From the human T2T-CHM13v2.0 reference genome, Homo sapiens, in assembly GCF_009914755.1 (NCBI RefSeq), contig NC_060926.1: a DNA stretch of 64,000 bases. One strand, 5' to 3'. The position numbers and the translations under genes were made by a program. This document shows positions 41,323 to 43,020 of the stretch, piece by piece; the first letter of the stretch is position 1, and each line of letters starts with the position of its first letter. The notes below the pieces were generated by a model, which was not told the origin of the DNA, did no database searches, and worked only from the letters and a program-made list of their open reading frames with translations.

Positions 41323-41407
41323 CTTTTTGGGTTTATTTTATTTTTTATATGCATTTTTTTAGAGACTGGGTCTTGCTATATTGTCCAGTGCAGTGGCTAT
41401 TCACAGG

Positions 41408-41768
41408 TGTTATGATTTGGCTGTGTTCCCACCCAAATATCATCTTGAATTATACCTCCCATAATCCTCATGAGTGGTGGGAGGGACCAGGTGGGAGGTA
41501 ATTGAATCATGGGGGCGAGTTTTTCCTGGCCGTTCTCATGATAGGGAATAAGTCTCATGAGATGTGATGGTTTTATAAAGGGCAGTTCCCCTGCACACAC
41601 TCTCTTGCCTGCTGCCATGTAAGATGCGCCTTTGCTCCTCCTTTGTCTTCTGCCATGATTGTGAGGCCTCCCAGCCATGTGGAATTGTGAGTTCATTAAG
41701 CCTCTTTCTCTTTATAAATTACCCAGACTTGGGTATTTCTTCATAGCAGTATGAAAACAGACTAATCA
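41408..41768 (+). mobile_element. THE1 (THE1C-like) LTR
   Basis: TGTTATGATTTGGCTGTGTTCCCACCCAAAT...ATAAATTACCCAG...GACTAATCA. Confidence 0.93.
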
Positions 41769-41774
41769 ATTTTT

Positions 41775-42285
41775 TGTGATGGTTAATATTGAGTGTCAAC
41801 TTGACTGGATTGAAGGATGTAAAGTATTGTTCCTGGGTGTGTCTGTGAGGATGTTGCCAAAAGAGATTAACATTTGAGTCAGTGGACTGGGAAAGGCAGA
41901 CTCACCCTCAATCTGGAAGGGTACCATCCAGCTAATCAGCTGCCAGCACAGCCAGGATAAAAGCAGGAAGAGGAACATGAAAGAATTAGACTGGCTGAGT
42001 CTTCTGGCCTCCATCTTTCTCCCATGCTGGATGCTTCCTGCCCTCAAACATCAAACTCCAAATTCTTCAGCTTTTGGACTCTTGGACCTACATCATTGGT
42101 TTGCCAAGGGCTCTCAGGTCTTCAGCCACAGAATGAACGTTGCACTGTTGGCTTCCCTGCTTTTGAGGTTTTGGGACTCGGACTGGCTTCCTTGCTCCTC
42201 ATCTTGCAGAAGGCCTATTGAGGGAGTTCATCTTGTGATCATGTGAATCAATACTCCTTAATAAACTCATATATATATATATGTG

Positions 42286-42318
<33 letters not shown>

Positions 42319-42358
42319 CTATCCTATTAGTCCTGTCCATTTAGAGAACCCTAATACA
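41775..42358 (+). mobile_element. MLT2A1 (HERVL) LTR with internal (TA)n(CA)n
   Basis: TGTGATGGTTAATATTGAGTGTCAACTTGA...TATCCTATTAG...AGAGAACCCTAATACA. Confidence 0.92.
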
Positions 42359-42486
42359 ACAGGCATGATCATAGCATGCTACACAGCCTTGAACTTCTGG
42401 ACTCAAGTGATCCTCCCATGTCAGTCTCTTGAGTAGCTGAGACTACAGGCTCATGCCACCATGTCCAGCTCTAAGAGGTCATGTAC

Positions 42487-43020
42487 TTTTTTAAATTTTT
42501 TTTTCAACTTTTAATTTTTAATTCAGGGGTCACATGTAAAGGTTTGTTACTTGGGTATACTTTGTGATGCTGAGGTTTAGGGTATGATTGATCCTGTCAC
42601 TCAGGTAGTAAGCATAGTGCCCAGTAGATAATTTTTTCAACTCTTGCCCCATTCCCTCCCTCTCCCTCTAATAGTGCCCTGTGTCTACCGTTGTCATCTT
42701 TATGTCCATAGGTACCCAATGTTTAGCTTCCACTTATGAGTGGGAACATACGGTATTTGGTTCACTGTTGCTGCATTTATTCACTTAGGATAATGGCATC
42801 CAGCTGTATCAATGTTGCTGCAAAAAACATGATTTCATTCATTTTCATGGCTGTGTAGTAATCCATGATATATATGCACCAGATTTTCTTTACCAAAGAT
42901 ACTCTTGATGGGCACCTAGGTTGCTTCCCTGTCTTTGCAATTGTGAATACTGCTGTGATAAACATGCCAGTTCATATGTCTTTTTGGTAGAATAATTTAT
43001 TTTCTTTTGGATATATATCC
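42487..43020 (-). mobile_element. L1PA15/16-like 3' end, 5'-truncated
   Basis: TGTGATGCTGAGGTTTAGGGTATGATTGATCCTGTCAC; TACCCAATGTTTAGCTTCCACTTAT; L1 ORF2 C-terminal remnant MFITAVFTIAKTGKQPRCP. Confidence 0.9.

What the first reader, a model, noticed from the sequence alone, without database searches (positions are those of the whole stretch)
41403..42363. THE1 LTR fused to an MLT2A1 LTR with one shared target-site duplication
Seen: a FAM is split at ACAGG, which is duplicated at 41403-41407 and 42359-42363. Between the copies lie a complete THE1 LTR (41408-41768, ending CTAATCA rather than CTAATACA), a 6-bp filler ATTTTT, and a complete same-strand MLT2A1 LTR (41775-42358). Neither LTR has its own TSD, and no primer-binding site or polypurine tract is visible at the junction. 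Established: THE1 MaLRs lack pol and are thought to borrow ERVL machinery; MLT2A1 is a HERVL LTR; both make 5-bp TSDs and end in GACTAATACA. Inference: one integration event inserted an end-joined or recombinant THE1+HERVL cDNA, and each part later collapsed to a solo LTR. That would be direct fossil evidence of a parasite and its helper retroelement moving together. Alternative: sequential insertion followed by a small deletion through the shared terminal homology.
Basis: partly seen in the sequence, partly recalled or inferred. Interest (0 to 1): 0.75.

Follow-up and report, generated by a model that had tools for sequence, protein, structure and literature searches.

The report
Two unlike LTRs sharing one duplication
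In an intron of NRXN1, a THE1 LTR and a HERVL-type (MLT2A) LTR lie head to tail inside an old Alu-like monomer and share one 5-base target-site duplication; this may record the parasite and its helper inserting in one step, but this genome alone cannot prove it.

Summary
The anatomy is real. An antisense FAM-type monomer is split at ACAGG, which lies on both sides (41403-41407, 42359-42363). Between the copies are a complete THE1-type LTR, six bases (ATTTTT) and a complete same-strand MLT2A-type LTR. Two intact FAM relatives carry ACAGG once at this point, so the duplication is true. Neither LTR has flanking repeats of its own.

I dissected nine other places in the genome where one ERVL or MaLR LTR abuts, or sits in the edge of, another. 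In seven the younger element keeps its own 5-base duplication; two are unresolved. The window's pair has no inner copy.

The six junction bases do not match the THE1 LTR-to-primer-site spacer (GTAAAT) or the end of the HERVL interior. It also argues against simple joining of untrimmed cDNA ends.

One integrase event carrying a composite DNA is my best reading (about 0.5). A two-step history with a damaged inner junction remains possible (about 0.3). No sister copy or donor was found. Primate orthologues, which would decide, could not be reached. "Direct fossil evidence" overstates the case. Interest is moderate.

The parts
41347..41407 (-). Left piece of the split FAM-type Alu monomer. On the + strand it starts with the T-run (its A-tail) and ends ...GCAGTGGCTATTCACAGG.
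   Evidence: Continuity with intact relatives L101 and L115.
41403..41407 (.). Left copy of the 5-bp target-site duplication, ACAGG.
41408..41768 (+). Complete THE1-type (MaLR) LTR, TGTTATG...GACTAATCA. One A is missing from the usual ...CTAATACA end.
   Evidence: Full-length alignment to other THE1 LTRs. The best relatives are 93% identical over the last 127 nt.
41769..41774 (.). Junction filler ATTTTT. It holds no PBS, no PPT and no copy of ACAGG.
   Evidence: Compared with the THE1 spacer GTAAAT, the HERVL spacer GATTT and the ends of HERVL-int.
41775..42358 (+). Complete MLT2A-type (HERVL) LTR, TGTGATGG...GAGAACCCTAATACA.
   Evidence: L097 aligns over 1-584. Relatives flank a pol/dUTPase interior.
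42270..42317 (.). (TA)n(CA)n microsatellite grown inside the MLT2A LTR.
   Evidence: (AC)14.5 at 42289-42317.
42359..42363 (.). Right copy of the 5-bp target-site duplication, ACAGG.
42359..42470 (-). Right piece of the split FAM-type monomer, ACAGGCATGATCATAGC...CCATGTCCAGC.

Best explanation
One ERVL-type integrase event put a composite DNA into the ACAGG pentamer of a FAM monomer. The left end of that DNA was the start of a THE1 LTR and the right end was the end of an MLT2A (HERVL) LTR. The event made the single 5-bp duplication.

The outer anatomy is shown. How the composite arose is inferred. Three routes are open:
(a) One end of a THE1 cDNA and one end of a HERVL cDNA were captured by one integration complex, the two free inner ends were joined by cellular end-joining with trimming and filler, and each element later collapsed to a solo LTR.
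(b) A pre-formed THE1-HERVL tandem at a donor site, of the kind seen at chr5:88.07 Mb, was copied as a unit. Minus-strand synthesis primed at the HERVL PBS and plus-strand synthesis primed at the THE1 PPT would give LTR-spacer-LTR with correct ends. The five T would then be the donor's pentamer.
(c) A chimeric provirus formed by intermolecular plus-strand transfer and later lost its interior.

I rank them (a) about equal to (b), and both above (c).
For: - True single outer duplication; both LTRs complete and on the same strand.
- Neither LTR has its own duplication: flanks match 1/5 and 0/5.
- By contrast, 7 of 9 other dissected abutting or edge-nested pairs keep an inner duplication of at least 3/5; 2 of 9 are unresolved.
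- The junction holds no copy of ACAGG, which is the mark of a double insertion (passages of PMC5932611).
- The junction bases match neither the start of THE1-int nor the end of HERVL-int, so a nested insertion plus deletion is disfavoured.
- The two families share LTR ends: TGT.ATG at the start, and the shared end CTAATACA in this pair (GACTAATACA in THE1 and in the pol-bearing HERVL copies sampled). They also share a TGGTACC-type PBS and a 5-bp duplication, so one integrase could use one end of each (PMC2836564 passages).
- They were active at the same time. At chr5:88.07 Mb a HERVL sits inside a THE1, and the LTR pairs are 82.3% and 82.9% identical.
- The ACAGG site fits the W-N9-W target rule reported for both families: T at -3 and T at +3.
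Against: - No second locus with a shared duplication was found.
- No sister copy or donor of the junction exists in this genome. Only L002 spans the junction among the 40 hits scored out of 2029 candidates. The 30-nt junction with up to 3 mismatches finds only itself.
- Simple joining of untrimmed ends predicts the THE1 spacer GTAAAT at the junction, which is absent. No LTR-GTAAAT-LTR junction appeared among the 16 matches.
- New ERVL/MaLR insertions do land right at the edge of older LTRs, so a second hit at the same spot is not far-fetched.
- Joint integration of two different cDNAs in vivo is, as far as I recall, undocumented in mammals; my literature searches turned up none.
Confidence: 0.5

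Rival explanations
1. Two separate integrations. The second element landed on the pentamer next to the edge of the first LTR, a favoured spot. Faulty gap repair or one-ended integration then replaced the inner ACAGG copy with ATTTTT and removed one A from the THE1 end.
For: - Edge insertions recur. HERVL sits in the last 9 nt of a THE1 LTR.
- MLT2-type LTRs lie 3 nt after a MaLR LTR end, in L013 and L015.
- THE1/MST LTRs lie 3 or 5 nt after an LTR end, in L117, L118, L119, L122 and L123.
- Junction damage is seen elsewhere: the MLT2A in L013 lacks its last 5 nt.
- The filler is close to pentamer length.
- PMC2836564 (passages) reports over-representation of young MaLRs inside older MaLRs.
Against: - The inner copy would have to change at 4 of 5 bases and gain a base, while both outer copies stayed 5/5.
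- In 7 of 9 comparators the inner duplication is still readable.
- No trace of ACAGG is left at the junction.
Confidence: 0.3
2. A full-length THE1 (or HERVL) inserted with the ACAGG duplication. The other element nested just inside it, beside an LTR. A deletion through the shared terminal homology (CTAATACA at the 3' ends, TGT.ATG at the 5' ends) then removed the interior and the far LTR, so the younger element's own duplication was lost.
For: - The last 8 nt (CTAATACA) are shared by the two LTRs of this pair; GACTAATACA (10 nt) is shared by THE1 and the pol-bearing HERVL copies sampled.
- The chr5:88.07 Mb pair carries two adjacent near-identical 9-mers, CCTAACACA and ACTAACACA, at its right junction. 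If they collapsed, the locus would mimic a shared duplication.
- L123 shows a MaLR nested in the PBS region just after an ERVL 5' LTR.
Against: - The junction should then read as the start of THE1-int. That is GTAAAT in 26 of 30 copies exactly, within one change in all 30, and in 2 of 2 close relatives.
- Or it should read as the end of HERVL-int..GGACT or ..AGATT.
- ATTTTT matches GTAAAT at 2 of 6 positions.
- The THE1 LTR end is essentially complete, so an insertion inside its last bases, as at chr5, does not fit the left junction.
Confidence: 0.1
3. Another route. For example, retroelement cDNA was captured at a double-strand break beside an existing LTR. Or a HERVL-type circle-junction-like product was involved: the filler matches the HERVL spacer-plus-one, GATTTT, at 4 of 6 positions in register.
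For: - The filler resembles GATTTT (26 of 30 HERVL 5' LTR boundaries) more than GTAAAT.
- Filler DNA is typical of end-joining (recalled).
Against: - A break exactly at an LTR boundary is a coincidence.
- The left LTR is THE1, not MLT2A.
- A 4/6 match in a T-run is weak.
- Break capture does not predict a 5-bp duplication.
Confidence: 0.1

Closest known systems
Nested or edge insertion of one LTR element into another (TE nesting hot spots, Levy et al. 2010, PMC2836564). Example here: HERVL inside the last 9 nt of a THE1 3' LTR at G000:C5:88.07 Mb.
   Same: The same two families, in the same head-to-tail order and on the same strand, with the junction at the LTR ends.
   Different: At chr5 each element keeps its own duplication: HERVL TCTAA/ACTAA, THE1 TCCAG/GCCAG. 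In the window there is one outer duplication and no inner one.
Tandem TE dimers made by double insertion at one target site (McGurk and Barbash 2018, PMC5932611; passages read).
   Same: Two elements lie head to tail at one site.
   Different: That model predicts a copy of the target site inside the junction. The window's junction is ATTTTT, not ACAGG.
Tandem LTR-retrotransposon arrays flanked by one duplication in plants (Morales-Diaz et al. 2025, PMC11899658; abstract, Background and Discussion read).
   Same: A multi-LTR structure bounded by a single duplication. The abstract favours a single insertion; the Discussion leaves illegitimate recombination open.
   Different: Those arrays are one family, and neighbouring units share an internal LTR. 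Here the two LTRs belong to different families, a parasite and its helper, and have a short filler and no interior.
Retroviral 2-LTR circle junction (recalled textbook knowledge).
   Same: The U5 end of one LTR lies next to the U3 start of another, a few bases apart.
   Different: The spacer expected from THE1 (GTAAAT) is absent, the two LTRs are unlike, and the structure is integrated through its outer ends.
Recombinant ERVs from co-packaged RNAs, for example the ERV1/ERV3 recombinants HERV18, HERVL32 and HERVL66 (Kojima 2018, PMC5753468; passages).
   Same: Two retroelement lineages are joined in one insert.
   Different: Those recombinants are mosaic in the interior and have matching LTRs. 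Here two whole, unlike LTRs remain and no interior.

Membership tests
THE1 (MaLR) LTR | About 360-bp LTR with TG...CA ends, homologous to the LTRs that flank a short pol-less interior with a TGGTACC-type PBS. | tested here: met
   The window LTR aligns over 1-350/359 at 83-85% to both LTRs of a chr5 element whose interior is 1.58 kb. The boundary ...CTAATACA|GTAAAT|TGGTACC is seen in 30 of 30 relatives. The family name itself is recalled; no repeat library was available.
MLT2A / HERVL LTR | An LTR TGTGATGG...CTAATACA that flanks an ERV-L interior with pol and a dUTPase. | tested here: met
   The window LTR matches both LTRs of a 6.5-kb chr5 element. Its interior gives Pfam RNase H, integrase core (28 bits, under the 32.6 cut-off) and dUTPase (47 bits). 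A1 versus A2 was not testable.
FAM (fossil Alu monomer) | An Alu-like monomer with the extra stretch ..TATTCACAGG.. that FLAM/FRAM-like copies lack, and with an A-tail. | tested here: met
   L101 and L115 share the stretch and 14 of 16 relatives lack it. A T-run lies at 41353-41360 on the + strand. The name is recalled.
Integrase-made ERVL/MaLR insertion | A 5-bp target-site duplication directly outside TG...CA ends, with W at -3 and +3 of the duplication. | tested here: met
   ACAGG lies on both sides and occurs once in intact FAM copies. The context is TTC|ACAGG|CAT. The rule comes from PMC2836564. It is met only by the pair as a whole, not by either LTR alone.
Double insertion at one target site | A copy of the target site inside the junction. 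| tested here: not met
   The junction is ATTTTT, which matches ACAGG at 1 of 5 positions.
Nested insertion | The inner element has its own flanking duplication, and the host element resumes after it. | tested here: not met
   MLT2A flanks are TTTTT and ACAGG (0/5). THE1 flanks are ACAGG and ATTTT (1/5).
End-joined untrimmed cDNA ends (circle-junction type) | The U5-to-PBS spacer of the left element is retained between the LTRs. | tested here: not met
   The THE1 spacer is GTAAAT. The junction matches it at 2 of 6 positions.
Co-integration of helper and parasite | Both LTRs appear together in phylogeny, with no lineage carrying only one. | not testable with these tools
   No primate genomes are held. 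The genome search states that G000 has no relatives here.

The most novel reading that the evidence does not exclude
A non-autonomous MaLR (THE1) and its presumed helper (HERVL) entered the germline genome in a single integrase event. One intasome may have used one end of each cDNA, or an existing THE1-HERVL tandem may have been retrotransposed as a unit. Either way the event left a heterotypic LTR pair with one duplication. That would be a physical record that the two shared a particle or an integration complex.
Probability: 0.45. Interest if true: 0.65.

Novelty: new variant of a known kind. Interest (0 to 1): 0.4.

Why it matters
That MaLRs borrow ERV-L proteins is inferred from shared LTR ends, PBS and target-site rules; it has not been observed directly. 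A pair that provably arrived in one event would show that the two cDNAs met in one integration complex. It would also give a search image (unlike LTRs, one duplication, no inner copy) for counting such events across mammals.

If the history instead had two steps, the locus still illustrates a point that the comparators make. New ERVL/MaLR copies tend to land within a few bases of older LTR ends, and this can mimic composite elements.

The locus lies deep in an NRXN1 intron with no annotated function, so nothing suggests an effect on the host.

Tried and rejected
- Sister or donor copies. The 101-nt junction query gave 40 scored hits out of 2029 candidates; only L002 spans the junction, and it is a different, nested structure. 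The 30-nt junction with up to 3 mismatches finds only itself.
- Filler as the THE1 spacer. Rejected.
- Filler as the end of HERVL-int. Rejected, but on only two boundaries.
- Filler as the HERVL spacer. A 4/6 match, judged too weak.
- Exact-pattern scans for more MaLR-to-MLT2 junctions.
  - 4 hits, 2 relevant.
  - 12 hits against 3 in the control. Only the window and L013 are relevant. Four were dissected; L097 and L099 are plain insertions with their own duplication, L098 and L100 are not relevant junctions. Six were not examined.
  - L013 only.
  - These scans need intact motifs and miss most old copies, so the counts are lower bounds.
- My rough chance estimate for such abutments is about 1-3 genome-wide. 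It rests on recalled copy numbers and is inference only, so I claim no enrichment.
- L118 and L122 as further shared-duplication cases. Neither could be settled. The MLT1-type LTR start in L118 is uncertain and its flanks do not match. The THE1 5' flank for L122 was not where I expected it.
- Dating the two window LTRs against their families was not attempted beyond pairwise identities. These were 70-86% for THE1 against other THE1/MST LTRs and 77-84% for MLT2A over its 5' part or full length. A consensus was not to be built.
- The search of earlier findings was not open.
- Literature searches for heterotypic LTR pairs with one duplication found nothing direct. Subscription journals are not covered.

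Full report
**What is there**

One search shows, on the + strand, the 3' part of an antisense Alu-like monomer ending ...GCAGTGGCTATTCACAGG (to 41407). Next comes an LTR, TGTTATGATTTGG...GAAAACAGACTAATCA (41408-41768), then ATTTTT (41769-41774). A second LTR follows, TGTGATGGTTAAT...GAGAACCCTAATACA (41775-42358). The monomer then resumes with ACAGGCATGATCATAGC... (from 42359).

The first LTR aligns over its whole length with THE1-type LTRs. It matches both LTRs of a chr5 element at 83-85% and aligns over positions 1-359 to L118 and L117. The second LTR aligns over positions 1-584 with a solo copy, L097, that has the same GAGAACCCTAATACA end. So its 3' end is intact, and the missing GACT relative to other HERVL LTRs is a subfamily trait, not damage. 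A (TA)n(CA)n run has grown inside it.

The family names are recalled, because no repeat library was available. The kinship is tested, though. LTRs of the second type flank a 5.6-kb interior with RNase H, integrase-core and dUTPase matches. LTRs of the first type flank a 1.58-kb interior that has no room for pol.

**Is the duplication real?**

I searched the genome with the right piece of the monomer. From 16 of the 39 non-self hits I fetched the stretch across the insertion point. Two of the 16 (L101, L115) carry the FAM-specific stretch, and both read ...TTCACAGG|CATGATCATAGCA with one ACAGG. The other 14 are monomers without that stretch. Removing the insert and one ACAGG therefore restores an uninterrupted FAM, so ACAGG is a true 5-bp target-site duplication.

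The site context, TTC|ACAGG|CAT, has T at -3 and T at +3. This fits the W-N9-W rule that Levy et al. report for both MaLR and MLT2 insertions (PMC2836564, passages).

Neither LTR alone has a duplication. The THE1 flanks are ACAGG and ATTTT (1/5). The MLT2A flanks are TTTTT and ACAGG (0/5).

**Comparators in the same genome**

*The chr5 locus.* The junction query found one other junction-spanning locus, at chr5:88.07 Mb (40 hits scored of 2029 candidates). It is a full-length THE1 followed directly by a full-length HERVL. HERVL sits in the last 9 nt of the THE1 3' LTR with its own duplication (TCTAA on the left, ACTAA on the right). The tail of the THE1 LTR (CACA) and the THE1 duplication (TCCAG/GCCAG) follow the HERVL 3' LTR. 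The two LTR pairs are 82.9% (THE1) and 82.3% (HERVL) identical, so the families were active together.

*MaLR end followed by an MLT2 start.* Exact-pattern scans found two more such junctions. In both, the MLT2 LTR has its own duplication, which straddles the last CA of the older LTR:
- L013: CAGCC on both sides.
- L015: CAAGA on both sides.

Two further scans added nothing relevant.

*LTR end followed by a THE1 start.* This scan gave 16 hits against a control of 0. I dissected the seven that end in CTAATACA:
- L117: own duplication CAGAT.
- L119: GGCCT/GGCCC.
- L120: CATGC, but the upstream sequence is not an LTR.
- L121: a THE1 nested at nt 4-8 of an MST-like LTR, with inner duplication TATGG and outer CTGGG.
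- L123: an MST nested in the PBS region after an MLT2-type 5' LTR, TTTGG/CCTGG.
- L118: unresolved.
- L122: unresolved.

In all, 7 of 9 abutting or edge-nested pairs keep an inner duplication and 2 are unresolved. The window's pair is the only one with a clean outer duplication and no inner one.

**What the six junction bases say**

- THE1 elements read ...CTAATACA|GTAAAT|TGGTACC... at the 5' LTR boundary. This holds exactly in 26 of 30 copies, the query copy included, and within one substitution in all 30. It also holds in both of the two full-length elements among the 20 closest relatives of the window's LTR.
- HERVL reads ...CTAATACA|GATTT|TGGTACCAGGAGTGG (26 of 30 exact for GATTTT).
- HERVL interiors end ...GGGGTGGACT or ...GGGGCAGATT before the 3' LTR (only two boundaries seen).
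- ATTTTT matches GTAAAT at 2 of 6 positions and carries no G-run.

It should have left the start of THE1-int or the end of HERVL-int at the junction, and it did not.

A double insertion at the same pentamer should have left ACAGG (the rule stated in PMC5932611), and it did not.

Plain ligation of untrimmed cDNA ends should have left GTAAAT, and it did not. If two cDNAs were joined, the ends were trimmed and filled. The junction can also be read as GACTAATCAA plus TTTTT, a spacer of pentamer length. That would suit a tandem formed at a TTTTT site elsewhere and then copied as a unit.

**Weighing the models**

The outer anatomy is what an integrase event gives when the left substrate end is a THE1 U3 start and the right one is an MLT2A U5 end. 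The two families share those ends. Every two-step model needs a precise coincidence at an LTR boundary and also an unexplained rewriting of the inner junction. Against that, edge insertions are clearly favoured in these families, and joint integration has no documented precedent that I could find (subscription journals are not covered).

My estimates are:
- One composite event: 0.5.
- Sequential insertion with a damaged inner junction: 0.3.
- Nested insertion plus deletion through homology: 0.1.
- Other routes: 0.1.

No sister copy or donor exists in this genome. Primate orthologues would decide the matter but are not held here.

**Verdict**

This is a new variant of known LTR tandem and nesting structures. 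It is of moderate interest as a single locus, and of more interest if a genome-wide scan finds a class of such pairs.

Noticed in passing
L011+L012 = G000:C5:88070132-88078988 (minus strand): A full-length THE1 with a full-length HERVL nested in the last 9 nt of its 3' LTR. Both LTR pairs are about 82-83% identical, so the two insertions were close in time. At the right junction the HERVL LTR end and the resumed THE1 LTR tail form two adjacent near-identical 9-mers (CCTAACACA, ACTAACACA). If they collapsed, the locus would mimic a shared duplication.
   Followed up: yes
L013, L015, L117, L118, L119, L122, L123: After a true older LTR end (...CTAATACA), the younger ERVL/MaLR LTR starts 3 nt later (L013, L015, L117, L118) or 5 nt later (L119, L122, L123). 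The unverified hits with CTAAT[T/C/G]CA have spacers spread over 2-10 nt. This suggests a preferred integration register at LTR edges. The numbers are small, and ascertainment was by exact pattern.
   Followed up: partly
L121 = G000:C8:54736403-54737292: A THE1 LTR nested at nt 4-8 of an MST-like LTR (inner duplication TATGG, outer CTGGG). At first sight it looks like a head-to-tail LTR tandem.
   Followed up: yes
L098 = G000:C14:76885810-76887110: The AT-rich microsatellite zone near the 3' end of an MLT2A LTR has grown into more than 500 nt of TATATATTCC-like tandem repeats. The end of the array was not reached.
   Followed up: no
window 41563-41572 and 41775-41784: The 10-mer TGTGATGGTT occurs inside the THE1 LTR and again as the first 10 nt of the MLT2A LTR (D17). 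It is probably family-level similarity or chance.
   Followed up: no
window 42487-42523: A T-rich low-complexity stretch lies just after the FAM right piece. Beyond it the sequence was not identified.
   Followed up: no
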